A stretch of 25,163 bases of DNA from Candidatus Hadarchaeum sp. Lineage in GTDB: Archaea; Hadarchaeota; Hadarchaeia; Hadarchaeales; Hadarchaeaceae. The stretch is taken from positions 1-25,163 of the forward strand of contig NZ_JAVZIN010000015.1 in NCBI RefSeq assembly GCF_038871235.1, given 5' to 3'. The notes below the pieces were generated by a model, which did not search any database, was not told where the DNA came from, and saw only the letters and a list, made by a program, of their open reading frames with translations. A program made the translations under genes and the position numbers. How positions within the stretch are numbered: the stretch's first letter is position 1; each line of letters begins with the position of its first letter. Positions 1-12,195 of the stretch are shown one piece after another.

Positions 1-249
1 CGGGTCCTCAAAGTTAACGACGAGGGTGTCCTTTGGCTCAATGGTTCTCTGACTTCTCAGCTTCCGGATGAAGAGATATGCGAGAGAAGATTTACCGGCC
101 CTCCTTACCCCAAGCAGGATCGTGGCAGCTCCTTTGCCGAATATCTCTTCCAGTTTGGAAAGGTACGCGGTTCGCGCCCTGAGATCCTCCCTGAAACTCC
201 CCCAGAAGTTCCAATCGGTGAGAATTTCCATTATTTTCGCTTCTTCCAC
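1..249 (-). CDS. AAA+ ATPase, COG1373 / AAA_14-DUF4143 type; N-terminal part, runs off the window edge
   Basis: Not in the ORF track. Hand translation from GTG 249 (alternative ATG 231): (M)EEAKIMEILTDWNFWG...TILLGVRRAGKSSLAY...TLVVNFEDP. Walker A GxRRxGKS, the N-terminal WNxW motif and NFEDP are typical of the family. Confidence 0.85.
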   Translation of the reverse strand, partial: MEEAKIMEILTDWNFWGSFREDLRARTAYLSKLEEIFGKGAATILLGVRRAGKSSLAYLFIRKLRSQRTIEPKDTLVVNFEDP

Positions 250-251
250 GT

Positions 252-311
252 TTTGAAATGGGGTTTTCAAATATATAAGTATATCGGTTAATTTTTAATT
301 AAAATTACCGA
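252..311 (-). promoter_or_regulatory. TATA box of the ATPase gene flanked by two inverted repeats (putative operators)
   Basis: TTATATAT on the minus strand at 271-278, about 22 nt above GTG 249. Inverted repeats TTTGAAA-N6-TTTCAAA (252-271) and TCGGTAA-N14-TTACCGA (284-311). Confidence 0.6.
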
Positions 312-656
312 CATATTGAAATTTCGACCTCCTAAAAACCACTCAGACCGATCTGCGTGCAATTTCGTGCCTCCCCCTCCCCCCAGCAGGAAATGGTGAA
401 GAGATCAGGATCAACAGAATGCGCCGGGGGGGTCACCTACGACTTCGTTTAAAATGACGTATTTTATTAAACATGATAAATTTGGGGATTTACACCCGTA
501 GGTAGCTCCCTTTCATTTGCACCCTGCCTACAGTATGGCTCCACCTAGCTGGCCCCTCGTCACAATCCTCATCCGAAGCCTATCGACCAACTTTAACCTA
601 AATCTGCATGTGTTCGAAATTTTTGAAACAGGCGAAAAATGTTCAGCACCGACCTC

Positions 657-788
657 TCACCCTCCACGGCCACCCTCAAGTAGCCACCTCAACGGTGGCA
701 GGAACTTCACCTTTTCCCAAACTCCCTTCCCGCCTCCAGGGTTTTCGGTCAAAACCAACACCTTGCGCAGCCGAAACCCAAAGTCCAT
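657..788 (-). pseudogene. 43-codon ORF resembling the extreme C-terminus of a COG1373/DUF4143 ATPase (gene remnant)
   Basis: MDFGFRLRKVLVLTENPGGGKGVWEKVKFLPPLRWLLEGGRGG*. Resembles the recalled family ending 'liiT.d.e....i.fiPlwkWLL'. GGAGGT lies just upstream of the ATG. Confidence 0.4.
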
Positions 789-861
789 GAAAAATACCTC
801 CTCAAAGAAACTTACCCCAACTCAGCACGCCGATAAATCACGTCTCCAGCGCTTTCCGGCT

Positions 862-1632
862 TTATCCCTTCCTTCTGATCAGCTTCTTCAGCAGCAGCCG
901 CCGCCTGCTGACCACCGGCTTGATGTGCTTCCATTTCATCCGCTTCATCACCGCCTCCGCCAGCTGAAAGTCCATCTTGGTGTCAATGGTGATCGAGCGC
1001 TCCGGCGGCATCAGATAGGGACAGCTGATCCTCCCCTTGAATGAGTTCTGATTCACCAGCACGTCGCGCCTCACCGCGTAGATGGCCTCATTCCTCAGGT
1101 AAACTGGAGGCAGCAGCTTCTTGGGCATGTTCTCCACCTCCTCCTCCACATAGTCGATCAGCCGGTCGTGGACAATCTTCTTCATCCTCATCGGGTGGCA
1201 GGACCCAACCTTGGTCACCGAAATCACCGAATCAGCTCCGGTCTCGATCAGCTTGCGCAGCGCCCGGTCGATGTCAGCTGTGGTCCGGAGAGGAGTCGTG
1301 GGGGACAGCACCACCACATAATCGTACTTCTTGCCCTCCTGCTTCTCCACCTCCAGCACCGCATGCTTCACCACATCGGTGAGCAGCGAGAGGTCGTCGG
1401 CAAGTTCCTTGGGCCGGACGAAGGGGACCTCGGCGCCATAGTTCCTCGCCACCTCGAGAACCTCCTCATCCTCCGAGGAAACGACCAGCCGGGTAAGCAA
1501 CTTGCATTCCCGCGCCGGAACGATGGTATAAGCAATCAGAGGGCGACCCAGCAAGGATTTGATGTTCTGCTTGGGGATCGGCTTCGACCCGCCCCGAGCC
1601 GGTATCACGCCCAGTATCCGGTATCTCCTCAT
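862..1632 (-). CDS. neuA: NeuA-like acylneuraminate (CMP-nonulosonate) cytidylyltransferase homologue with altered active-site motifs
   Basis: IPARGGSK, PLIAYTI, FVRPKELADD, PTTPLR, ADSVISV, IDTxxDF. Start reassigned to ATG 1632, which has a GAGGAGG RBS and lies 10 nt after the neuB-like stop. Confidence 0.88.
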   Translation of the reverse strand: MRRYRILGVIPARGGSKPIPKQNIKSLLGRPLIAYTIVPARECKLLTRLVVSSEDEEVLEVARNYGAEVPFVRPKELADDLSLLTDVVKHAVLEVEKQEGKKYDYVVVLSPTTPLRTTADIDRALRKLIETGADSVISVTKVGSCHPMRMKKIVHDRLIDYVEEEVENMPKKLLPPVYLRNEAIYAVRRDVLVNQNSFKGRISCPYLMPPERSITIDTKMDFQLAEAVMKRMKWKHIKPVVSRRRLLLKKLIRRKG

Positions 1633-1642
1633 CTGGGCCTCC

Positions 1643-2593
1643 TCAGAATACCTTCTTTTCCTCCCAATTAAACACCACCATTCCTCTGACCCGGCTGGCA
1701 AACCGACCCCGGTAGTAGTCCCGGTTAAGCAGCTCTTCCTGACTAAGCTCCGGATGTCTGACCCCTTTCATCGCCTCAAACTCGGGAATTCGGCGTACCA
1801 GCTCCTCAAGCTCCTCCCTGTCCATCTTGGCATAGCTGACGAGTTCCTTCAACTGGACAGGGTCGACTGACATTGGCCCCTCAGATGTCAAGGTACGATC
1901 TAAGATGGTAAACGGTTTCTGAATGACATCAGCGCCGAGGTAGAGCGCGGCTATCGAGGCCTTCAGCCCATCGCGCTCGACCAGCGAGTGGTCGCTGAAC
2001 CCAACGCTCCTGGTGAACTTCCTCAGATAGTTCATCCGGGCCAGGTTCATCCTCTCCAGCGGCGTGGGGTAAAGGGCCACCGAGTGAAGTAAAGTAAAGC
2101 TACGCCCTTTCAATACCCTCGCGGCCCCCTCCACCTCCCCGTCAAGGGCAGCTTCGGTGGAAATGAAGAGGTGGTCAAAGCGCTCGGCCAGCTCCCTGAT
2201 CATCGGATAGCTGGCGCAGTCATAGCCGCACACGCCTATCTCCCGCCAAGGCAAGCTGGCCAGAAATGGTATCCTGGAGCGGGTGTAGACCGTCGTCAGC
2301 GGCTTTATGCCCGCCGAGCGGCACTCGTCGATGAAGATCTGATGAGCCTCATCGCTCAGGTCCAGCGGCTTCAGGCGCTGATACTCCTCACGGTAAGGGC
2401 GCTTGATCGCATACACCCTGCCCCTCTCCACTCGCCCCTGCTCAAACCGCTCCCGGTAGACGAGGTCATCGGCCTTCATGGAATGAATCAGAACATAGTC
2501 CGCCCCGGCCTCGGCGGCGGCCCGCACCATCTCCTTCAGCGTCTCCAAGCTTCCCCGGTGATTCTGGCCCAGGTCGGCTATTACCTTTGCCAT
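1643..2593 (-). CDS. neuB: NeuB-like N-acetylneuraminate/nonulosonate synthase homologue, short form without SAF/antifreeze domain, degenerate active site
   Basis: IADLGQNHRG, AGADYV, ISTE, LHSVALYPTP, GFSDHS, GADVIQKPFT match the NeuB TIM-barrel motif order. Start ATG 2593 or 2599; TTATTAAT box at 2625-2632. Confidence 0.88.
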   Translation of the reverse strand: MAKVIADLGQNHRGSLETLKEMVRAAAEAGADYVLIHSMKADDLVYRERFEQGRVERGRVYAIKRPYREEYQRLKPLDLSDEAHQIFIDECRSAGIKPLTTVYTRSRIPFLASLPWREIGVCGYDCASYPMIRELAERFDHLFISTEAALDGEVEGAARVLKGRSFTLLHSVALYPTPLERMNLARMNYLRKFTRSVGFSDHSLVERDGLKASIAALYLGADVIQKPFTILDRTLTSEGPMSVDPVQLKELVSYAKMDREELEELVRRIPEFEAMKGVRHPELSQEELLNRDYYRGRFASRVRGMVVFNWEEKKVF

Positions 2594-2644
2594 CCCCATC
2601 CACAGATTCAAAAATCAGCCGGCGATTAATAAGAGTTCTGAATT

Positions 2645-3304
2645 TCAACCGTAGAGCGCCCGGAGCTTGATCAACCGGAGGAAGATCCTGATGCCGCTGG
2701 CTATCGTCGTCCCCCTCGCCTTGGAATAATCGGTAAAATAGCACTTGACTGGTACCTCCCTGATCCTGAGGCCGTTTCTCCTAGCATTGATGACGATCTC
2801 AGAGGAGACCTCATAGCGATCACTCCTGATCTTGATGGTCTCCAGAGCCCTCCGGCTGAACGCCCTCATCCCTGACTGAGAATCCAGCAGGGGCCCACCC
2901 ATCAGCCTCGTGATCAGATTGAGCATGAAGTTGCCGAAGCGTTTATTCAGCGGGACATTGACGAACCGCCTAGAACCGATGACGAGGTCGGCCCCGTCAA
3001 TCGCCTCAACCATCCGCCTCACCTCTTTTGGGTCGTGCTGGCCGTCGGCGTCAAAGGTCACCGCACAATCCGCCCCGCGCCTTAGCGCCTCCTCAAGGCC
3101 GGTGCGGAGGGCCGCGCCCAGGCCCAAGTTCCGCTCGTGGCTGACGACCACCGTGCCCTTCGCCCTGGCAATCTCGGCCGTTCCATCCGTGGAGCCATCG
3201 TCAACCACGATAATGTTTTTCCAGCCCTCCCGGTGAAGGCCGTCAATCACCCCGCCGATGGTTCGCGCCTCATTTCTCGCCGGCATCACTATCCAGCACT
3301 TCAC
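2645..3304 (-). CDS. GT2 family glycosyltransferase, dolichol-phosphate sugar synthase-like
   Basis: MPARNE, VVDDGSTDGT, NLGLGAA, FDADGQHDP, GSR, DSQSGMRAF. GTG start overlaps the upstream TGA (GTGA). Confidence 0.92.
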   Translation of the reverse strand: MKCWIVMPARNEARTIGGVIDGLHREGWKNIIVVDDGSTDGTAEIARAKGTVVVSHERNLGLGAALRTGLEEALRRGADCAVTFDADGQHDPKEVRRMVEAIDGADLVIGSRRFVNVPLNKRFGNFMLNLITRLMGGPLLDSQSGMRAFSRRALETIKIRSDRYEVSSEIVINARRNGLRIREVPVKCYFTDYSKARGTTIASGIRIFLRLIKLRALYG

Positions 3305-4239
3305 CTCAAGACCCCCTGTGTCCGCAACAGCATCTTGACGCCGCTCTCGACTGACACCTTGGGCCTGAAGCCGAGCAGCTCCCGGGCCTTAGTGATGTCC
3401 GCCTGACTATGCCTGATGTCCCCAGGACGGGCGGCCTCGTATCTAGGCCTCAATTTGGGCCTTCTCGCCAGCTTGAGAAAGAGCTCACAGAGTTCATTTA
3501 CGCTCGTCCGCCTCATCGTCCCCACGTTGATTGCCTCCCCTTCCACCCCGGGCCTTTCCAGCGCCAGCAGCGTGGCCCCCACCACATCGGTCACGTAAAT
3601 AAAGTCCCGGGTCTGGTTCCCATCACCGTAGATCACCGGTGGTTGGTTCTCCCGCAATCTCTCGATGAACTTCAGCATCACCCCGGCATAATCACCGCCC
3701 GTCTGCCTAGGTCCGTAAACGTTGAAGTAACGGAGTGAAACCACGGGAAAAGCGTTCGCCTCAAAGAAGGCAAGACAGGCCCTCTCCGCCTCAAGCTTGG
3801 AGCTGGCGTAGGGCGACAGTGGTTCCGGTGGTGTCTCCTCCTTTATCGGCAGCTTCTTCGCCTCCCCGTAGATAGCACAGGAAGAGGCAAAGACGAACCT
3901 GGTGACGCCAGCTTCCAAGCTGGCTCTGAGTAGTGTGAGCGTCCCCTCCACGTTGACCTCATGGGTCAAGGCCGGCTCCTTGAGGGAAAGCGGCACGCTG
4001 ATCAGAGCCGCCAAGTGCACCACGGCCTCAGCACCATCCAAGGCACTTCTCACCGCCTCCTGATCCCTGACATCGCCCCTGACCAACCTGAAATTTTTAT
4101 TATCCAGATGGTGGGAGATGTTCCCCTCTGAACCGGTGGAGAAGTTATCCAGCACCGTGACGGAGTAGCCCCGGGACAGCAAAGCGTCAACCAGATGGGA
4201 GCCGATGAACCCGGCGCCTCCCGTGACCAGCACCCTCAT
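3301..4239 (-). CDS. NAD-dependent nucleotide-sugar epimerase/dehydratase (extended SDR, GalE/WbpP-like)
   Basis: Start reassigned to ATG 4239 (MRVLVTGGAGFIGSH). HLAA, SSCAIYG, catalytic YASSK, LRYFNVYGPRQ, GDGNQTRDF. Confidence 0.94.
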   Translation of the reverse strand: MRVLVTGGAGFIGSHLVDALLSRGYSVTVLDNFSTGSEGNISHHLDNKNFRLVRGDVRDQEAVRSALDGAEAVVHLAALISVPLSLKEPALTHEVNVEGTLTLLRASLEAGVTRFVFASSCAIYGEAKKLPIKEETPPEPLSPYASSKLEAERACLAFFEANAFPVVSLRYFNVYGPRQTGGDYAGVMLKFIERLRENQPPVIYGDGNQTRDFIYVTDVVGATLLALERPGVEGEAINVGTMRRTSVNELCELFLKLARRPKLRPRYEAARPGDIRHSQADITKARELLGFRPKVSVESGVKMLLRTQGVLR

Positions 4240-5904: not shown

Positions 5905-7749
5905 GTGAATATAAGGGAAAAAGGATTGGCCACAGCTGCCGTAATAGTGATTGTCATTGTAATCGTTGCTGTTATCGCTGGAGCCGCTTTGATGCTGAGC
6001 CAACCAGCACCAACGACGACCACACCAACCACCTCGCCTACAACCACACCCACAACTACACCAACCACCTCACCCACGACCAAAATCGTGAAGAATCCGG
6101 ACACGCTGATCTACGCCACTATCGGTGAGCAGGAAACCTTAGATCCGGCTTGGGCATACGACACCGCTAGTTCTGAGGTCATCATGAGTGTTTACGAGAG
6201 CCTGATCGCCTTCGACGGCACCCACACCGATAGATTTATCCCCAAGCTGGCAACCGAGGTGCCAACCGTCGCCAACGGCGGGATATCCGCGGACGGTCTG
6301 ACCTACAGGTTCAAGATCAGGAGCGGTGTTAAGTTCCACAACGGAAATGACCTGACCCCGGAAGACGTCGAGTACTCATTTGAGAGGGCGATGGTGCAGA
6401 ACCGTGACGGTGGTCCAGTGTGGATGCTTCTGGAGCCACTGATCGGAATCGAGGCTGCCTACGAACCTCTGACCTTCGAGCAGATCGACCAAGCGGTGGA
6501 AGTGGAGGGAGACTATGTGGTCTTCCACTTGGCGCAACCATACCCGCCATTCATGGCCATACTGGCGCAATCTTGGTCCTCGATTGTTGACAAGGAATGG
6601 TGCATCGAGCATGGTGACTGGCCGGGAACAGCGGACACCTGGAAGGACTACTACAACCCAGAAACCCCACCGTTGCAGGAAATAATGAACGGCACCGGAC
6701 CTTTCAAGCTCGACCGCTGGGAGCACGGAGTTCAAACAGTGCTAGTGAGAAACGATGACTACTGGGGAGGACCAGCGAAACTCAAGAACGTGGTTATCCA
6801 AGTAGTCCCGGAGTGGACCACCAGAAAGCTGATGTTCTTGGCCGGTGATGCCGACATCGTTGACGTGCCCCGACCAAACATCGCGGAGCTTGAGGGTGTT
6901 GAGGGCATTCGAGTCACAAAGGATCTCCCAACATTGATTGTCGACGCCATGTTCTTCACCATGAACATTGACCCCACCAGTGAGTGGATAGGTAGCGGAC
7001 AGCTCGACGGAAACGGCATCCCGCCCGACTTCTTCTCCGATAAAGATGTCCGGCTTGCCTTCGCCTACTCCTTTGACTACGAGTCCTTCCTGCGCGATGT
7101 TTACCTCGGTGAGGCAATCCAGCCAGCCTCTCCGGTGATAGAAGGGCTACCCTACCACAACCCGAATCAGGAGAAATACTACTTTGACCTAGCCAAGGCC
7201 GAGGAACACTTCAAGAACGCCTTCGGTGGTGAGGTCTGGGAGAAGGGATTCAAGATGACAATTCTGTACAACACCGGCAACGAGCCCAGAAGGATTGCCG
7301 CGGAAATTCTCAAGAACAACATTGAGAGCCTCAACCCGAAGTTCTCCATTGAGGTGGCGGCAAGGGACTGGGGCACTTATCTCGGTGAAATGGTCCACAG
7401 CAAGCTTACCCTATACATAATAGGCTGGATGGCTGACTACCCGGATCCACACAACTTCGTTCACCCATTCATGCATAGCGCGGGTGCCTTCTCTGCCTGG
7501 CAGGGCTACTCGAATCCCACCGTGGATGAACTCATCCAGCGGGGAATAAGCGAAATTGATCCCGCAAAAAGGCAGGAGATTTACTATGAGTTGCAGCGAA
7601 TCTACCATGAGGATGTCCCGAGCGTCCCGATTGACCAAGCACTTGGGCGCCACTTCGAGAGAGATTGGGTGCAGGGTTGGATCTACAACCCGATATGGCC
7701 CGGCGAACCGGCACTTTGTGACCCCTACCTGCTTTGGAAAGGTTACTGA
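5905..7749 (+). CDS. dppA: Peptide/oligosaccharide ABC transporter substrate-binding protein (SBP family 5), class III-like signal peptide, Thr/Pro linker
   Basis: GGAGG RBS with GTG start; TLDPA, FKIRSGVKFHNG, EDVEYSFER, GTGPFKL, GWMADYPDP. Confidence 0.93.
   Translation: MNIREKGLATAAVIVIVIVIVAVIAGAALMLSQPAPTTTTPTTSPTTTPTTTPTTSPTTKIVKNPDTLIYATIGEQETLDPAWAYDTASSEVIMSVYESLIAFDGTHTDRFIPKLATEVPTVANGGISADGLTYRFKIRSGVKFHNGNDLTPEDVEYSFERAMVQNRDGGPVWMLLEPLIGIEAAYEPLTFEQIDQAVEVEGDYVVFHLAQPYPPFMAILAQSWSSIVDKEWCIEHGDWPGTADTWKDYYNPETPPLQEIMNGTGPFKLDRWEHGVQTVLVRNDDYWGGPAKLKNVVIQVVPEWTTRKLMFLAGDADIVDVPRPNIAELEGVEGIRVTKDLPTLIVDAMFFTMNIDPTSEWIGSGQLDGNGIPPDFFSDKDVRLAFAYSFDYESFLRDVYLGEAIQPASPVIEGLPYHNPNQEKYYFDLAKAEEHFKNAFGGEVWEKGFKMTILYNTGNEPRRIAAEILKNNIESLNPKFSIEVAARDWGTYLGEMVHSKLTLYIIGWMADYPDPHNFVHPFMHSAGAFSAWQGYSNPTVDELIQRGISEIDPAKRQEIYYELQRIYHEDVPSVPIDQALGRHFERDWVQGWIYNPIWPGEPALCDPYLLWKGY
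6010..6081 (+). repeat. Imperfect 12-nt tandem repeat encoding a PTT(T/S) linker, about 6 units
   Basis: Encodes PTTTTPTTSPTTTPTTTPTTSPTT; ACACCAACCACCTC occurs twice. Confidence 0.85.
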
Positions 7750-7880: not shown

Positions 7881-8915
7881 TTGGAACTTAGGACATATAT
7901 CGCCAGGAGACTGCTGCTCCTAATACCGGTGATACTAGGCGTCGTTATCATCATTTTTGTCGTACTGCAATTTTTCAGCCCGACGCAGAGGGCAGCGCTT
8001 TACGTGAGGAACCCTCAGCAATTCAGGGAAATAGACCAGATAATCGAAAAATACCACCTGAACGATCCGGCCTATGTACAATTTTTCTACTGGATAAGCG
8101 AAGTTCTTAGCGGCAACTTGGGTTGGTCCAAGTCGGTTAACATGCCTGTCGCTGAGGCTCTGATGAGATTTCTCCCTGCGACGCTTGAACTAATGATATT
8201 CACCGTCCCGTTGACCATCTTCATCGGGATAAGGCTGGGGGTAACCTCCGCTATTCACCGGGACAAGCCCGTGGATCACATGACCCGGGGACTGGCCATC
8301 GCCGGATATTCCCTGCCAGCATTCTGGCTGGGACTGATGCTGCTGATGATATTTTACGGATTCCTCACTGGTTTATTCCCTCCAGGTAGGCTGGGTCTCG
8401 ATGCTGAGATGGTGGTGAGCTCAGCGTCCTTTGTCAAATACACCTCAATTAACACCATCGATGGGATTTTGAACCTCCGCTTTGACGTGGTCTTCGATGC
8501 CTTAAGACATCTAATCCTCCCCGTTGCCACGCTTACCATCATCAACTTGGCCTTCATCATGCGGATCATGCGCTCGAGTATGCTGGAGACGCTGAACAAG
8601 GACTACATTACGATGGCCCGAGCCAAAGGCCTTGACGAAAAGACGGTGATTAACAAGCACGCCAAGAGAAACGCGTTAATTCCGGCGGTGACCGTGGCGG
8701 GATATCTGGTGGCCTCGTTGATGGCCGGAGCCGTGCTAACCGAAACTGTCTTTAACTACAAGGGGCTAGGCTGGTGGTCAGTTAACGCCGCGGTCCAGCT
8801 TGACATACCTGCGGTTCTTGGATTCGTGCTTTTCATCGGCACCGTGATCGTGATAACCAACCTAATCGTCGACCTGCTCTACGCCAAGATTGACCCGAGG
8901 ATCAGGCTGGGGTGA
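7881..8915 (+). CDS. dppB: Peptide ABC transporter permease, DppB/OppB
   Basis: YIARRLL, GNLGWS, PATLEL, EAA loop DYITMARAKGL, ETVFNYKGLG, DPRIR. Confidence 0.94.
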   Translation: MELRTYIARRLLLLIPVILGVVIIIFVVLQFFSPTQRAALYVRNPQQFREIDQIIEKYHLNDPAYVQFFYWISEVLSGNLGWSKSVNMPVAEALMRFLPATLELMIFTVPLTIFIGIRLGVTSAIHRDKPVDHMTRGLAIAGYSLPAFWLGLMLLMIFYGFLTGLFPPGRLGLDAEMVVSSASFVKYTSINTIDGILNLRFDVVFDALRHLILPVATLTIINLAFIMRIMRSSMLETLNKDYITMARAKGLDEKTVINKHAKRNALIPAVTVAGYLVASLMAGAVLTETVFNYKGLGWWSVNAAVQLDIPAVLGFVLFIGTVIVITNLIVDLLYAKIDPRIRLG

Positions 8916-8919
8916 TGAT

Positions 8920-9972
8920 ATGATCCTAGAACTGCTGCTCTTTGCCATTATTTTCTCTGCGGTTCTATCAGTGCCGGCCCTTTTTATCCGTAGGATCGGG
9001 GCTGGAAAAATCTCAGAAGGTAAACCCCGGGAGACGAAAGAGAAGTTGAGCCGCTGGGGAAATTTCAAGGCCAATATGGGGCCCCAAGTCAAGGAGCTAA
9101 AGTTCTCGCTCAGAAGGATAAGGAAAAGCCCGCTTTCGATGGCCGGAATTTCCATCATCGTCTTCTTTGCCATCATCGCGGTACTAGCTCCAGTGCTCGC
9201 CCCACCCGCCGATCCCAACCGCCCTTACAATATCCCCCGCGACGGCTTTTCCCAGACTCCAAAGCCACCGAGCGAAGCCCACCCATTCGGAACCACCGAG
9301 GGGCAGTTCGACATCTACTACGGCGTCATCTGGGGCACTAGGACTGCTTTCACCGTCGGGTTATTGGTGGTAGGTGCCTCAATGGTGGTAGGTATAGCGC
9401 TGGGGGCCCTAGCGGGATATTTCGGCGGGATAATCGATGAAACAATCATGAGAGTTACGGATATCTTCTTTGCCGTCCCGGCCCTAATCCTGGCGATGGC
9501 CTTCGTGACCGCAATGGGTCCCGGCCTCGACAGCGTGATGAAGGCGCTGATTCTGGTGTGGTGGCCTGTCTACGCTAGGCTGGTCAGAGGTGAGGTGCTG
9601 CAGGCGAAGCAGGAGACTTACGTTGAGGCGGCGCGGGCAATGGGTGCCTCAAACTTTCGAATCATCACCAAGCACGTGCTCCCCAACACGCTGTTCTCAG
9701 TCTTGGTGATGGCATCCTTAGACTTAGGGGCAGTCGTACTCACCGCCGCAGGACTCAGCTTCATCGGTCTGGGTGCACCGCTGGGATACGCGGACTGGGG
9801 GCAGATGATTAGCTTCTCCAGAAACTGGATCGTGGGACCACCGGGGCAACCGTTCCTATACTGGTACACCGTCCTGATCCCCGGCCTATTCATCTTCTTC
9901 TTTGTGCTCGGGTGGAGCCTCCTTGGAGACGCCGTCCGGGACATCTTGGATCCAAAGCTGAGGAGGAAGTAA
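8920..9972 (+). CDS. dppC: Peptide ABC transporter permease, DppC/OppC, with an extra N-terminal hydrophobic segment
   Basis: Start reassigned to ATG 8920 (GGTGA RBS). HPFGT, YVEAARAMGA, KHVLPN, LSFIGLG, LGDAVRDILDP. Confidence 0.93.
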   Translation: MILELLLFAIIFSAVLSVPALFIRRIGAGKISEGKPRETKEKLSRWGNFKANMGPQVKELKFSLRRIRKSPLSMAGISIIVFFAIIAVLAPVLAPPADPNRPYNIPRDGFSQTPKPPSEAHPFGTTEGQFDIYYGVIWGTRTAFTVGLLVVGASMVVGIALGALAGYFGGIIDETIMRVTDIFFAVPALILAMAFVTAMGPGLDSVMKALILVWWPVYARLVRGEVLQAKQETYVEAARAMGASNFRIITKHVLPNTLFSVLVMASLDLGAVVLTAAGLSFIGLGAPLGYADWGQMISFSRNWIVGPPGQPFLYWYTVLIPGLFIFFFVLGWSLLGDAVRDILDPKLRRK

Positions 9973-11145
9973 ATGGCGAAAAAATCCGATCTGTTGGTTC
10001 AAGTCAGGGGGCTTGTGGTGAGGTTCTACACCTACGAAGGCATAGTCAAGGCCCTCAGCGGCATCAACTTGGACATCAAAGAAGGGGAAACACTGGGGCT
10101 GGTTGGAGAAACTGGTTGCGGGAAAAGTGTCACCGCCTTCTCCATCATCGCGCTACCACCACCGCCCGGAAAAATCGAAAAAGGTGAAATACTGCTGAAG
10201 AGCAACGGCGGCTTGATCAACGTCCTGAATCTGCCCAAGGAAAAGCTGCAGGACATTCGCGGGCACAAGATTTCCATGATCATGCAAGAGCCGAGCGCTG
10301 CTCTCAACCCCCTGTACACCATTGGCGACCAAGTCTCGGAGGTGCTGCTCAGGCACCGGGCGGAGACTTTCATCAAGATGGCACTCGAGGAACTTGAAAG
10401 GGACATTGCAGCCGCCGAAAGAAAAGGCTCAAGATTCAAAGCCCGGGTTTACCGCACTTACGCCGGAATCTACCGCAGCATGTTGAAAAATCAGAAATCC
10501 TTGAAGGCCAGAATTGCCTCAAAAATACCTTTTCTCAAGAGATACCGGCGCTGGTTAGATTCCGTGCTGAGAAAGGAGGTGGTCAGACTTTTGGAGGAGA
10601 TGAGGATAGCCAACCCTGGGGGCGTCTTTGACCTCTACCCGCATGAGCTGAGCGGCGGCATGCAACAGCGCGCCGTCATCGCCATGGCCCTCGCCTGCCA
10701 TCCAAAACTGCTCATCGCTGACGAACCGACCACTTCGCTGGACGTCACCGTGCAGGCGCAGATTCTGGATCTAATCCGAGAGCTGAAAAAAGAATTCGGC
10801 TCCTCGGTGCTCTACATAACCCATAACCTCGGAGTGGTGGCAGAAATATGCGACCGCGTTGCCGTGATGTATGCCGGACAGGTCTGCGAGATCGCCGAGG
10901 TAAAGGAACTCTTCAAGAGGCAGATGCATCCCTACACACGGGCCCTGTTCCAAGCCATACCGCGCCCGGGGAAAGGATTTATTTCGATCAAGGGTACGGT
11001 GCCCAATTTGGTCAACCCACCACCTGGCTGCAGGTTCCATCCACGGTGCCCTAGGACCATGGAAATCTGCTCCAAGGAAACGCCGAAGGCTGTTGAGGTC
11101 AGGAAAAACCACTTTGTGGCCTGCCACCTCTACAAGGGTGATTAG
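9973..11145 (+). CDS. dppD: Peptide ABC transporter ATP-binding protein, DppD/OppD
   Basis: [38 protein letters not shown]...C...C; long internal insertion. Confidence 0.94.
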
Positions 11146-12195
11146 ATGGAAGTAATGCTTGAAACACGTGGGTTGAAAAAATACTACCCAATACTGGGCG
11201 GGATACTGAGAAGGAAGAAGGGTGACGTAAAGGCCGTTGACGGTGTTGACCTCAAGATCTACCGTGGCGAGTTCTTCGGGCTAGTGGGGGAATCAGGCTG
11301 CGGGAAGACCACCTTCGGGAAGACGGTGCTTCGCCTGCAAAATCCAACGGCAGGCCACATCTTCTTTGAAGTGCCGGAAGAAATCAAGCTCAAAATAGAA
11401 GAGCTGGAAAATGATGGGAGAAAGTCACCCGAGCTGTCGAAACTTCTACGCGAGTATGATTTCGCCCGCTTCAGCGGAAAAAAGCTCAAACAAATGAGGA
11501 GAAAGCTACAGATAGTTTATCAGGACCCAACCACCTCGCTCAACCCCAGAATGCTCGTCAAAGACATTGTGGGGGAACCGCTCATCATCCATAAGCTAGC
11601 CAGAGGTCATGAACTAGAGGAGAGGGTGCTTGAGCTGCTTTACAGGGTGGGATTAACCAAAGACCACCTCCGCAGATATCCCCACGAGTTCAGCGGAGGT
11701 CAGCGACAGCGCATTGCCATTGCGAGGGCACTGGCAACCAATCCAGACTTCGTCGTGCTCGATGAACCGACTTCCGCTCTCGACGTCTCCGTCCAAGCGC
11801 AGATCCTCAAACTTCTCCAAGACCTGCAGCGTGAACTCAAACTGACCTATCTCTATATTACCCACGACCTCAGCGTTGCTCAATGCGTCTGCAACCGGAT
11901 AGCGGTGATGTACCTAGGCAAGATCGTGGAGCTGGCTAAAACAGAACTATTTTTCAAACGTCCGATGCATCCCTACTCCCGGGCTCTGCTTTCGGCAATC
12001 CCTGTCCCAGACCCCACGGTCAAGAAGAAGAAAATAATCCTGAGCGGAGAAGTGCCCAGCCCGGCCAATCCACCGACGGGCTGCACCTTCCATCCTCGCT
12101 GCCCTTATGCTGACGAAAAATGTCGGCGGGAGCTGCCACGACTGACTGAGGTAAAGAAAGAGCATCTCGTGGCCTGCTGGTATCCGCTGAAGTGA
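11146..12195 (+). CDS. dppF: Peptide ABC transporter ATP-binding protein, DppF/OppF
   Basis: VKAVDGV, GESGCGKTT, YPHEFSGGQRQR, LDEPTSALDVS, HPYS, CTFHPRC. Confidence 0.94.
   Translation: MEVMLETRGLKKYYPILGGILRRKKGDVKAVDGVDLKIYRGEFFGLVGESGCGKTTFGKTVLRLQNPTAGHIFFEVPEEIKLKIEELENDGRKSPELSKLLREYDFARFSGKKLKQMRRKLQIVYQDPTTSLNPRMLVKDIVGEPLIIHKLARGHELEERVLELLYRVGLTKDHLRRYPHEFSGGQRQRIAIARALATNPDFVVLDEPTSALDVSVQAQILKLLQDLQRELKLTYLYITHDLSVAQCVCNRIAVMYLGKIVELAKTELFFKRPMHPYSRALLSAIPVPDPTVKKKKIILSGEVPSPANPPTGCTFHPRCPYADEKCRRELPRLTEVKKEHLVACWYPLK

What the first reader, a model, noticed from the sequence alone, without database searches (positions are those of the whole stretch)
862..2599. Co-degenerated NeuB-NeuA pair: candidate pseudoenzyme or re-purposed module
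Seen: two adjacent, co-oriented, full-length ORFs (10-nt gap, GAGGAGG RBS, own TATA-like box) with no stops or frameshifts. Their substitutions fall on active-site motifs while scaffold motifs are kept. Established: NeuB condenses PEP with a hexosamine and NeuA activates the product with CTP. Inference: random decay should not target the catalytic positions of two consecutive enzymes. The pair may be non-catalytic partner subunits of active paralogues (both families are dimers with shared active sites), metabolite sensors or scaffolds, or enzymes with a new chemistry. I know of no description of such a pair, but could not search.
Basis: partly seen in the sequence, partly recalled or inferred. 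Interest (0 to 1): 0.78.

Follow-up and report, generated by a model that had tools for sequence, protein, structure and literature searches.

The report
Dead sialic-acid-type enzyme pair, kept
In one genus of hot-spring archaea, two neighbouring genes descended from a sugar-acid synthase and its activating enzyme have both lost the residues needed for that chemistry yet stay intact under strong selection, so they probably now do a different, still unknown job.

Summary
On the minus strand, a 316-aa NeuB-like gene (1643-2593) and a 256-aa NeuA-like gene (862-1632) lie 10 nt apart behind a GalE-like epimerase and a small GT2.

Both belong to a widespread SAF-less NeuB / cytidylyltransferase cassette. 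In 171 of 183 unique NeuB-like rows the active-site pattern is kept, with at most two differences. One clade of 12 rows has replaced the PEP-, metal- and catalysis-linked residues. It represents four species of the window's genus. The NeuA-like partner in those genomes has lost the catalytic Lys and the sugar/metal Gln.

The clade is nested among canonical sequences 75-79% identical. It also lacks the cassette's 2-hydroxyacid dehydrogenase, and the cassette's transferase was not found beside it.

The genes are not decaying. dN/dS is 0.09-0.25, like the neighbouring genes. The ORFs, the 10-nt gap, the GGAGG site and the TATA-like box are conserved in all four species.

Three of the four genomes have no canonical paralogue, so the "partner of an active paralogue" idea fails.

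Best reading: a selectively maintained pseudoenzyme pair with a non-catalytic role in a surface-glycan operon. Re-tooled chemistry is the main rival.

This scan has noted the canonical cassette, and other dead-enzyme pairs, on other DNA before.

The parts
1643..2593 (-). NeuB-like gene (316 aa). SAF-less NeuB-type TIM barrel with a family-specific C-terminal domain. The PEP, metal and catalytic positions are replaced.
   Evidence: AF2 model pLDDT 97.2. Foldseek top hits 1vli and 1xuu, TM 0.69-0.72.
862..1632 (-). NeuA-like gene (256 aa). CMP-ulosonate synthetase fold with the catalytic Lys replaced (Q22) and the sugar/metal Gln replaced (S110).
   Evidence: AF2 model pLDDT 92.6.
1633..1645 (-). 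Junction: TGA stop of the NeuB-like gene, GGAGG ribosome-binding site and 10-nt gap before the NeuA-like ATG.
   Evidence: The gap is conserved in four species; GGAGG is kept in three, and G035 has GGCGG.
2625..2632 (-). TATA-like TTATTAAT in the 51-nt spacer between GT2 and the NeuB-like gene.
   Evidence: The element and the CCGGCTGA that follows it are conserved in four species. Promoter function is not shown.
2645..3304 (-). GT2 glycosyltransferase (219 aa), polyprenyl/dolichyl-phosphate hexose(amine) synthase-like. Always directly upstream of the pair.
   Evidence: PF00535. PpgS, AglJ and Dol-P-hexose transferase models, all below cut-off..
3301..4239 (-). GalE-like NAD-dependent epimerase. 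Overlaps the GT2 start by 4 nt. First gene of the four-gene block.

Best explanation
The two genes are the surviving remnant of a three- to four-gene cassette for a CMP-activated ulosonic-acid-type sugar. That cassette holds a SAF-less NeuB-like synthase, a CTP_transf_3 cytidylyltransferase, a D-2-hydroxyacid dehydrogenase and often a TagF/BFO_1060-like transferase.

In the ancestor of four species of one Hadarchaeum-like genus, the dehydrogenase and the transferase were lost. The synthase lost its PEP-phosphate, metal and catalytic residues. The cytidylyltransferase lost its catalytic Lys and its sugar/metal Gln. The pair came to sit behind a GalE-like epimerase and a Dol-P-hexose(amine)-synthase-like GT2.

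Since then both proteins have been kept as folded, co-expressed, non-catalytic proteins, that is, pseudoenzymes. I infer that they act through their conserved surfaces: the barrel scaffold, the family-specific insert and the C-terminal domain of the NeuB-like protein, and the nucleotide-fold scaffold of the NeuA-like protein. The likely role is as an accessory or scaffolding pair of the surface-glycan operon they sit in, not as catalysts.

Shown: loss of the residues, single origin, loss of the cassette's dehydrogenase, the cassette's transferase not found beside the pair or with the cassette's own query, purifying selection, and conserved operon signals.

Inferred: absence of the ancestral activity, and the scaffold or accessory role.
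For: Residue loss against the pair's own subfamily.
- 12 of 183 unique NeuB-like rows are degenerate.
- Of the other 171, 151 show the commonest 19-position pattern and 20 differ from it at 1-2 places.
- Representative clusters down to about 33% identity keep the pattern.
- Lost family-invariant positions are E7, C9, K35, Q37, F103, K120, S123, G147, E225, H227, D238. Partly lost ones include T100, S200, H202 and R226.
- They map by alignment onto N. meningitidis E25, K53, Q55, F112, K129, S132, E234, H236, D247 and H215.
- H215 and H236 are the metal ligands (PMC11339185, passage).
- E25, Q55, F112, K129, H215 and E234 are on the catalytic-site list (PMC6795526, passages).
- E25, E134 and E234 are named as catalytic (PMC8208679, passages).
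- In the NeuA-like protein, K22 and Q110 are lost in 7 of 150 unique rows, and K17 and G182 are partly lost. Lys21 and Gln104 are functionally important in CMP-NeuAc synthetases (PMC2901514, passages).

Relaxed pocket, constrained rest.
- 7 of 11 lost positions vary inside the clade (K35 becomes L/A/E; K120 becomes G/M/R/A; H202 is H/Y/R).
- By comparison, 140 of 316 of all positions vary, and 9 of 56 of the other invariant positions.
- dN at the 11 positions is 0.19, against 0.10 elsewhere.
- NeuA K22 is Q or L, and K17 is E in the G038 lineage.

Single origin, nested among canonical sequences.
- SH-aLRT is 100 for the 12 rows.
- It is 98 after 29 active-site columns are removed.
- The NeuA-like tree gives 99 for 7 rows.

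Selection.
- NG86 dN/dS is 0.085-0.25 for the NeuB-like gene and 0.09-0.24 for the NeuA-like gene, at dS 0.44-1.0.
- Neighbouring genes give GT2 0.09-0.17, Epi 0.12-0.25, UPF0047 0.08-0.19, RNH 0.10-0.28, UDG 0.07-0.25.
- Simulated neutral 316-codon ORFs stay open in 0.6% of 2000 runs at 0.2 substitutions per site, and in 0 of 2000 at 0.4.
- The junction and the TATA-like box are conserved in four species.

Context.
- All 7 of 7 degenerate loci (four species) have Epi-GT2-NeuB'-NeuA', and 0 of 7 have the dehydrogenase or a TagF-like gene.
- Of 25 canonical loci with at least 3 kb on both sides, 19 have the NeuA-like gene, 12 the dehydrogenase, 11 a TagF-like gene and 0 the GT2/Epi orthologues.
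- The four genomes hold only 40%-identical dehydrogenase paralogues and no match to the cassette transferase.
- No remnant of either gene lies downstream.
- G000 has no PF02350 gene and no second PF03102 or PF02348 gene.

Both proteins model confidently as intact folds.
Against: - No activity, binding or expression data exist. The only possible RNA evidence is short contigs from two runs that the tool itself labels 'probably DNA'.
- Several new states are fixed in every degenerate row: D7, H37, Y103 and P227, plus G123, Q225 and E238 in 11 of 12. These could form a new functional site.
- dN/dS at the lost positions is about 0.2, not 1.
- Genes in variable surface-glycan islands are normally enzymes.
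- The pair is absent at the syntenic site in G036. It is also absent there in G033, the closest species by AlaRS (95% identity), so it is dispensable. G033 is only 71% complete.
- The biochemical function of the canonical subfamily is itself unknown, so 'catalytic' is inferred from homology to N. meningitidis NeuB and CNS.
- dS is near saturation for some pairs, so the ratios are approximate.
- All genomes are metagenome assemblies.
Confidence: 0.55

Rival explanations
1. Re-tooled enzymes. The pair still catalyses two consecutive steps, but with a new PEP-independent and CTP-independent chemistry. It would use newly fixed residues (His37, Tyr103 and Asp7 in the NeuB-like barrel; Asp79 and Lys172 in the NeuA-like protein) and make or modify a sugar for the Epi-GT2 glycan pathway.
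For: - The new states H37, Y103, P227 and D7 are fixed in all degenerate rows.
- The pair sits inside a glycan-biosynthesis operon at the edge of a variable glycan island, where retained genes are usually enzymes.
- Many polar invariant residues of the subfamily are kept: N11, H12, D125, S145, H170, Y175, R291, Y293, R297.
- Purifying selection is strong.
Against: - Other former active-site positions drift among chemically unlike residues inside the clade: L/A/E, G/M/R/A, H/Y/R, E/A/G. NeuA K22 is Q or L, and K17 is K/E/R. That is not expected of a pocket doing defined chemistry.
- Erosion continues after the stem. L035 still has E225 and D238. L034 still has G182 and N215 but has gained K17E.
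- No new conserved charged or metal-binding constellation is evident.
Confidence: 0.25
2. Still the ancestral enzymes. The pair makes the same CMP-ulosonic acid with lower efficiency, and the substitutions are tolerated.
For: - Fold and most scaffold residues are intact.
- The superfamily can lose its metal site and stay active: the metallo to non-metallo KDO8P synthase structures appear among the fold matches.
- The Q104A mutant of N. meningitidis CNS loses only about fivefold in kcat (PMC2901514, passage).
Against: - The NeuB-like protein has lost one or both metal histidines, two of the three catalytic glutamates (E25->D, E234->Q), and the residues at the K53, K129 and S132 equivalents. All of these are invariant in 171 canonical rows.
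- The NeuA-like protein has lost the catalytic Lys. In one lineage it has also lost the P-loop Lys.
- The cassette's dehydrogenase is gone, and no matching transferase was found with the cassette's own query. G038 has a weak PF04464 hit elsewhere on the same contig.
- G000 has no PF02350 gene.
Confidence: 0.07
3. Slow pseudogenisation. The genes are on their way out and only look intact.
For: - The pathway partners are lost.
- The pair is absent from the syntenic site in G033 and G036.
- The active site keeps eroding within the clade.
Against: - dN/dS of 0.09-0.25 equals that of housekeeping neighbours.
- Both ORFs are full length in four species at dS 0.44-1.0, and in further metagenome rows.
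- Neutral simulation leaves essentially no open ORF at such divergence.
- The RBS, the gap and the TATA-like box are conserved.
Confidence: 0.05
4. Non-catalytic partner subunits of active NeuB/NeuA paralogues.
For: G038 carries a canonical NeuB-SAF gene 5 kb away and two further PF02348 genes.
Against: G000 (94.75% complete), G032 and G035 have no other PF03102 or PF02348 gene. The canonical paralogues in the genus are only 26-33% identical.
Confidence: 0.03

Closest known systems
SAF-less NeuB-like / CTP_transf_3 / D-2-hydroxyacid dehydrogenase cassette of uncultured archaea and bacteria (uncharacterised; annotated 'N-acetylneuraminate synthase family protein', 'general stress protein' or 'legionaminate synthase')
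   Same: It is the direct parent family. Hadarchaeal members are 75-79% identical and bacterial members about 60% identical. Length is the same (316-317 aa), as are the family insert and the C-terminal domain. The NeuB-then-NeuA order and the short spacer are shared.
   Different: Differs at 11 of 19 active-site positions, among them 11 family-invariant positions lost in the NeuB-like protein, and 2-5 family-invariant positions are lost in the NeuA-like protein. The cassette dehydrogenase and the TagF/BFO_1060-like transferase are missing. The pair has a new neighbourhood behind Epi-GT2.
N. meningitidis sialic acid synthase NeuB (1XUU/2WQP), B. subtilis SpsE (1VLI), C. jejuni PseI (8H2C)
   Same: Same TIM-barrel fold. 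Foldseek E is 1.9e-17 to 5.5e-16 and TM is 0.69-0.72. phmmer E is 7e-20 to 5e-14. Y186, S213 and S154 are kept, and so is the E134-to-D state that is common in archaea.
   Different: There is no SAF domain and no R314. H236 is replaced by P, E234 by Q, E25 by D, K129 by G, K53 by L and Q55 by H. NCBIfam scores are far below the equivalog cut-offs.
CMP-N-acetylneuraminate synthetases (V. cholerae 6IFD, N. meningitidis 1EYR) and PseF
   Same: Same fold and P-loop: R13, S16, K17, N23, the PTTPLR motif and D217. phmmer E is 2.9e-30 to 1.6e-22.
   Different: The catalytic Lys21 equivalent is Q (L in relatives). The Gln104 equivalent is S (P in relatives). The Asp209 equivalent is T; it is N in the whole subfamily. 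The PseF score is 156 against a cut-off of 205.7.
Prokaryotic pseudoenzymes kept by selection, such as degenerate LytM factors (EnvC/NlpD) that activate amidases, and degenerate GGDEF/EAL receptors (recalled, not searched). Also dead-enzyme pairs noted earlier in this scan, e.g. a dead PurQ-PurL pair (e1-5646747).
   Same: An enzyme fold is kept under purifying selection after loss of its catalytic residues. Here, as in the PurQ-PurL note, two consecutive pathway partners died together.
   Different: No partner, ligand or phenotype is known here. The family (NeuB/NeuA) has, to my searches, no described dead member.
Metallo to non-metallo KDO8P synthase transition (2NXG, 2NXH, 2NXI)
   Same: Same alpha-carboxyketose synthase superfamily. 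Loss of a metal ligand without loss of fold.
   Different: As I recall, non-metallo KDO8PS keeps its PEP-binding lysines and its activity. Here the PEP-site residues are lost as well.

Membership tests
NeuB family (Pfam PF03102), fold level | Significant match to the NeuB TIM-barrel profile and the corresponding fold | tested here: met
   PF03102 E 5.6e-39, 134.5 bits against a cut-off of 22.1. AF2 model pLDDT 97.2. Foldseek hits 1vli and 1xuu, TM 0.69-0.72.
Functional nonulosonic acid synthase (NeuB/LegI/PseI) | Two metal-binding histidines (Nm His215, His236) | tested here: not met
   The H236 equivalent is Pro in 12 of 12 degenerate rows. The H215 equivalent is His in the window but H/Y/R (4/4/4) across the clade. 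The residue roles come from a PMC11339185 passage.
Functional nonulosonic acid synthase (NeuB/LegI/PseI) | Catalytic glutamates E25, E134, E234 | tested here: not met
   E25->D and E234->Q. E134->D is the normal archaeal state (PMC8208679 passages).
Functional nonulosonic acid synthase (NeuB/LegI/PseI) | PEP/substrate-site residues K53, Q55, K129, S132, N184 | tested here: not met
   The window has L35, H37, G120, G123 and A173. The parent subfamily has K, Q, K, S, T. Q55, K129 and N184 are on the site list in PMC6795526. The roles of K53 and S132 are recalled.
Functional nonulosonic acid synthase (NeuB/LegI/PseI) | C-terminal SAF (antifreeze-like) domain with R314 | tested here: not met
   No PF08666 match. 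It is absent from the whole subfamily. Canonical paralogues in the genus have it.
Functional nonulosonic acid synthase (NeuB/LegI/PseI) | Score above the NCBIfam equivalog cut-off | tested here: not met
   NeuB_NnaB 138.6 against 399.65. PseI 109.8 against 340.25.
CMP-ulosonate synthetase (PF02348; NeuA/PseF/LegF/KdsB) | Fold and nucleotide P-loop (Arg12, Ser15, Lys16, Asn22) | tested here: met
   PF02348 E 2.4e-20. R13, S16, K17 and N23 are present in the window. K17 is E or R in two relatives.
CMP-ulosonate synthetase (PF02348; NeuA/PseF/LegF/KdsB) | Catalytic Lys21 and Gln104 | tested here: not met
   Q22 and S110 in the window, and Q/L and S/P in 7 of 7 degenerate rows. The other 143 rows have K, and Q in 140 with H in 3. 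Roles from PMC2901514 passages.
CMP-ulosonate synthetase (PF02348; NeuA/PseF/LegF/KdsB) | Mg-binding Asp209 and Asp211 | tested here: inconclusive
   D217 (Asp211) is kept. The Asp209 equivalent is T here but N in nearly the whole, presumably active, subfamily. The position is therefore not diagnostic.
SAF-less NeuB cassette subfamily | Sequence membership (nested in the subfamily tree, same length and domains) | tested here: met
   79% identity to P0009/L037. The clade is nested among canonical Hadarchaeal rows, SH-aLRT 99-100.
SAF-less NeuB cassette subfamily | Invariant 19-position active-site pattern, and a cassette partner (D-2-hydroxyacid dehydrogenase nearby) | tested here: not met
   11 of 19 positions differ. 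The dehydrogenase is next to 0 of 7 degenerate loci, against 12 of 25 well-flanked canonical loci.
Pseudoenzyme (enzyme homologue without catalytic residues, kept by selection) | Loss of family-invariant catalytic residues | tested here: met
Pseudoenzyme (enzyme homologue without catalytic residues, kept by selection) | Purifying selection after the loss | tested here: met
   dN/dS 0.085-0.25, equal to the neighbours, with intact ORFs in four species.
Pseudoenzyme (enzyme homologue without catalytic residues, kept by selection) | Demonstrated lack of catalytic activity | not testable with these tools
   This needs purified protein assays.

The most novel reading that the evidence does not exclude
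The two dead enzymes have become a dedicated non-catalytic module. For example, they could form a NeuB'-NeuA' heterocomplex that docks onto, or gates, the epimerase / Dol-P-hexosamine synthase encoded in the same operon. Alternatively, they could make up a two-step pathway with PEP- and CTP-independent chemistry built on the newly fixed His37 and Tyr103. Either way, this would be the first case of two consecutive enzymes of a nonulosonic-acid-type pathway being jointly re-purposed.
Probability: 0.25. Interest if true: 0.75.

Novelty: new variant of a known kind. Interest (0 to 1): 0.55.

Why it matters
- **Annotation.** Public annotation calls these proteins 'N-acetylneuraminate synthase family protein' and 'cytidylyltransferase domain-containing protein'. 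Reading them as a sialic-acid-type pathway in these archaea would be wrong.
- **A dated natural experiment.** Canonical relatives are 75-79% identical, and four descendant species are available. Two consecutive enzymes lose catalysis together, the pocket keeps eroding, and the rest of each protein stays under selection. The case shows which parts of the NeuB and NeuA folds matter apart from catalysis.
- **A handle on a new function.** If a partner or ligand is found, it would add a prokaryotic example of joint re-purposing of pathway neighbours.
- **A scanning tool.** The 19-position pattern can flag inactive members in large NeuB surveys.

Tried and rejected
- **Complex prediction, NeuB' with NeuA'.** The queue was full every time and the job never ran. 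It yields no evidence either way.
- **Expression.** No RNA holder is listed. Two runs labelled metatranscriptomic but flagged 'probably DNA' give 151-nt contigs on both genes. I do not use this as evidence.
- **Remnants of lost genes.** I looked downstream of the NeuA-like gene in four genomes for traces of the lost dehydrogenase or transferase. There was nothing below E = 2.5.
- **Fused long forms of the subfamily.** Only two hits, both to canonical SAF-type NeuB fusions at 32-33% identity. The tool itself rates this as weak evidence.
- **Relatedness of canonical contigs.** I tried to place L037, L041 and L049 relative to G000 through their flanking genes. The flanks are glycan-island genes with no close G000 homologue, so this was uninformative.
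- **Rfam and promoter/terminator scans.** No Rfam match in the window. The sigma-70 and terminator scan found nothing above the shuffles and does not suit archaea.
- **Site-class dN/dS using 'kept' versus 'lost or partly lost' classes.** This is circular by construction. Only the 11 stem-defined positions are used.
- **YN00 estimates.** They failed (nan) for most pairs, so NG86 is reported.
- **Literature.** Four full-text searches found no description of a catalytically dead NeuB or NeuA, and none of this cassette. PMC8397731 and PMC12531865 held nothing relevant. The original NeuB structure paper (Gunawan et al. 2005) was not seen. Supplements were not consulted.
Full report
**What is there.** The window comes from a 1.2-Mb archaeal genome that is 94.75% complete. 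Its best named protein matches are to Candidatus Hadarchaeum, and the DNA is held in hot-spring metagenomes.

Four co-oriented genes lie on the minus strand:
- a GalE-like NAD-dependent epimerase (3301-4239);
- a 219-aa GT2 (2645-3304) that overlaps the epimerase by 4 nt;
- a 316-aa NeuB-like gene (1643-2593), after a 51-nt spacer;
- a 256-aa NeuA-like gene (862-1632), after a 10-nt gap.

The GT2 most resembles polyprenyl/dolichyl-phosphate hexose(amine) synthases, below the family cut-offs. The stop of the NeuB-like gene is embedded in GAGGAGG (1638-1644). A TTATTAAT element lies 32 nt upstream of its ATG. The genes are on the minus strand.

**Family assignment.** The two proteins match PF03102 (E 5.6e-39) and PF02348 (E 2.4e-20). 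They fall far below every NCBIfam equivalog cut-off. The NeuB-like protein has no SAF domain.

AlphaFold2 models are confident: pLDDT 97.2 and 92.6. The NeuB-like model matches SpsE, NeuB and PseI structures (Foldseek E 1.9e-17 to 5.5e-16, TM 0.69-0.72), followed by DAHP and KDO8P synthases.

**The decisive comparison is with the pair's own subfamily.** Homology searches found a large family of about 317-aa SAF-less NeuB-like proteins in archaea and bacteria, roughly 60% identical to the query. There is a matching family of cytidylyltransferases, often on contigs of the same length.

I pooled the search hits with proteins read from fetched loci, which gave 183 unique NeuB-like rows.
- 151 rows share one pattern at 19 positions that align with the N. 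meningitidis NeuB active site.
- 20 rows differ from it at one or two places.
- 12 rows differ at five or more.
- The window protein differs at 11 of the 19.
- 41 representative clusters, down to about 33% identity, keep the pattern at 0-2 differences (three truncated rows show 3-4).

The changes in the window, with N. meningitidis numbering from the alignment, are:

| N. meningitidis NeuB | Window |
|---|---|
| E25 | D7 |
| K53 | L35 |
| Q55 | H37 |
| F112 | Y103 |
| K129 | G120 |
| S132 | G123 |
| N184-equivalent | A173 |
| E234 | Q225 |
| H236 | P227 |
| D247 | E238 |

What I saw in print supports these roles.
- His215 and His236 are the metal ligands (PMC11339185, passage).
- E25, Q55, T110, F112, K129, N184, Y186, S213, H215 and E234 line the catalytic site (PMC6795526, passages).
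- E25, E134 and E234 are the proposed catalytic residues, and E134D is common in archaea (PMC8208679, passages).
- The roles of K53, S132 and D247 are from my recall of the original structure paper, which I did not see.

In the NeuA-like family, 7 of 150 unique rows have lost both the Lys21 and the Gln104 equivalents. Lys becomes Q or L, and Gln becomes S or P. All 7 come from the genomes or contigs that carry a degenerate NeuB-like gene. Three other rows have only Gln changed to His. Lys21 and Arg12 are described as important catalytic residues. Gln104 mutants lose up to 47,000-fold in kcat/Km (PMC2901514, passages). The Asp209 equivalent is Asn in nearly the whole subfamily, so its replacement here is not diagnostic.

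**How specific the loss is.**
- 67 NeuB-like positions are at least 97% conserved in the 171 canonical rows. The 12 degenerate rows keep 47 in every row, have lost 11 and have partly lost 9.
- The lost set is essentially the active site. The kept set includes the family-specific insert (R47, F50, G53, R65, P66, E70, R73) and the C-terminal domain (E287, R291, Y293, G296, R297, F298, N309, W310, E311).
- In the NeuA-like protein, 30 of 35 invariant positions are kept, 2 are lost and 3 are partly lost.
- On the stem of the clade, 19 of 316 NeuB-like positions changed. Eight of those are among the 67 invariant positions, against 11 of the other 249 (Fisher p = 0.037). Most of the rest lie next to active-site residues.
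- Inside the clade, 7 of the 11 lost positions vary among chemically unlike residues. That compares with 140 of 316 positions overall, and 9 of 56 of the other invariant positions.
- Their dN is 0.19, against 0.10 elsewhere.
- Erosion is progressive. G035 still has the E234 and D247 equivalents. G038's NeuA-like protein still has two ancestral states but has gained a Lys-to-Glu change in the P-loop.

**Origin.** The 12 degenerate NeuB-like rows form one clade (SH-aLRT 100, stem length 0.21). It is nested among canonical Hadarchaeal sequences. The clade survives removal of 29 active-site columns (SH-aLRT 98). The NeuA-like tree gives the same picture (SH-aLRT 99 for 7 rows).

Among 65 genomes of the order, close orthologues (80-88% identity) occur only in G000, G032, G035 and G038. 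These are four of the eight species representatives of the genus. All four share the order UDG, RNase-H-like, UPF0047, Epi, GT2, NeuB', NeuA'. Protein identities of the pair (80-91%) track those of AlaRS (84-86%).

**What was lost with the residues.** Canonical loci typically hold the NeuB-like gene, the NeuA-like gene, a D-2-hydroxyacid dehydrogenase, and often a TagF-like (PF04464; BFO_1060-family) transferase.

| Neighbour of the NeuB-like gene | Canonical loci with at least 3 kb on both sides (n = 25) | Degenerate loci (n = 7, four species) |
|---|---|---|
| NeuA-like gene | 19 | 7 |
| 2-hydroxyacid dehydrogenase | 12 | 0 |
| TagF-like transferase | 11 | 0 |
| GT2 and Epi orthologues | 0 | 7 |

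- The four genomes hold only 40%-identical dehydrogenase paralogues.
- They hold no match to the cassette transferase. One weak PF04464 hit lies elsewhere on a G038 contig.
- No remnants lie downstream.
- G000 has no second PF03102 or PF02348 gene and no PF02350 gene.
- Two earlier notes of this scan describe the canonical cassette on other DNA as widespread and uncharacterised. My counts agree with that.

**Selection.** Pairwise NG86 dN/dS among the four species is shown below. For the pair, dS is 0.44-1.0.

| Gene | dN/dS |
|---|---|
| NeuB-like | 0.085-0.25 |
| NeuA-like | 0.09-0.24 |
| GT2 | 0.09-0.17 |
| Epi | 0.12-0.25 |
| UPF0047 | 0.08-0.19 |
| RNase-H-like | 0.10-0.28 |
| UDG | 0.07-0.25 |

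Canonical Hadarchaeal comparators give 0.04-0.10, but at saturated dS, so a modest relaxation cannot be excluded. Simulated neutral evolution of the ORF leaves it open in 4.9%, 0.6%, 0.05% and 0% of 2000 runs at 0.1, 0.2, 0.3 and 0.4 substitutions per site. The 10-nt gap and the TATA-like element with the following CCGGCTGA are conserved in all four species; the GGAGG site is kept in three, and G035 has GGCGG. These are not decaying genes.

**Limits on importance.** The block sits at the edge of a variable glycan island.
- In G036, Epi-GT2 is followed by a B12-radical-SAM gene, GT4 genes and a canonical NeuB-SAF cluster.
- In G033, the GT2 is only 73% identical and is followed by a GT4 gene and dTDP-rhamnose genes. 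G033 is the closest species by AlaRS (95%).
- The pair is therefore dispensable in close relatives. G033 is only 71% complete.

**Interpretation.** The ancestral chemistry is very unlikely to survive. The synthase has lost metal ligands, two of three catalytic glutamates and the PEP-site residues. The transferase has lost its catalytic Lys. The pathway partners are gone.

The rest of each protein is constrained while the old pocket drifts. The two genes are kept together with fixed spacing and translation signals. I therefore think the most likely reading (0.55) is a co-expressed, non-catalytic pair that acts through its surfaces within the Epi-GT2 glycan operon.

The main rival (0.25) is re-tooled chemistry. 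It rests on the fixed new His37, Tyr103 and Asp7 and on the operon context. Residual ancestral activity (0.07), slow pseudogenisation (0.05) and partnership with active paralogues (0.03) are poorly supported. Three of the four genomes have no such paralogue.

**Novelty.** Pseudoenzymes are a known kind, and this scan has noted several dead enzymes and dead pairs on other DNA. Four full-text searches found no description of a catalytically dead NeuB or NeuA, or of this cassette. I rate it a new variant of a known kind. It is of moderate interest, limited by the unknown function and by its restriction to one uncultured genus.

**Not done.** The complex prediction never ran because its queue was full. 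No RNA evidence is usable. Branch codon models (PAML or HyPhy) were not available.

Noticed in passing
window 271-861: About 590 nt downstream of the NeuA-like stop have no plausible ORF. GC is lower here (0.49 for window 1-1000). There is no Rfam match. The stretch ends at a fragment of an AAA_14 ATPase gene at the contig start (1-270, minus strand). Its nature is unknown.
   Followed up: partly
L128 (G033:C58:1-5669) and G033:C107: G033 is the closest species by AlaRS (95% identity). Its GT2 is only 73% identical and is followed by a GT4 gene and dTDP-rhamnose genes. This suggests the glycan island was swapped by recombination. G033 also has a canonical NeuB-type frame with one in-frame TAG.
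   Followed up: partly
L035:6054-7406 (G035): An AAA_14/DUF4143 ATPase gene is inserted between Epi and GT2 in G035. In the window a related AAA_14 fragment lies at the other end of the block (1-270). The gene may be mobile.
   Followed up: no
L034:13253-19996 (G038): Five kb beyond the dead pair, G038 carries a canonical NeuB-SAF cluster with PIG-L, PHP, ATP-grasp, GT28-like and radical-SAM/SPASM genes. A separate PF02348 gene lies nearby. A live and a dead NeuB-type system therefore coexist on one contig.
   Followed up: partly
L037, L041, L049, L036 and many metagenome loci: The canonical SAF-less NeuB / cytidylyltransferase / PGDH-like 2-hydroxyacid dehydrogenase cassette, often with a BFO_1060-family (TagF-like) transferase, is widespread in archaea and bacteria. 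My searches found no characterisation of it.
   Followed up: partly
window 5905-7749 (+): An SBP_bac_5 solute-binding protein has a Thr/Pro-rich linker after its N-terminal hydrophobic segment. It heads an Opp/Dpp-type ABC transporter operon (7881-12195).
   Followed up: no
P0136 (NeuA-like, 65% identity): A separate NeuA-like row has the Arg12 equivalent changed to Gln and the Asp211 equivalent changed to Asn, but keeps Lys21 and Gln104. This may be an independent partial degeneration.
   Followed up: no
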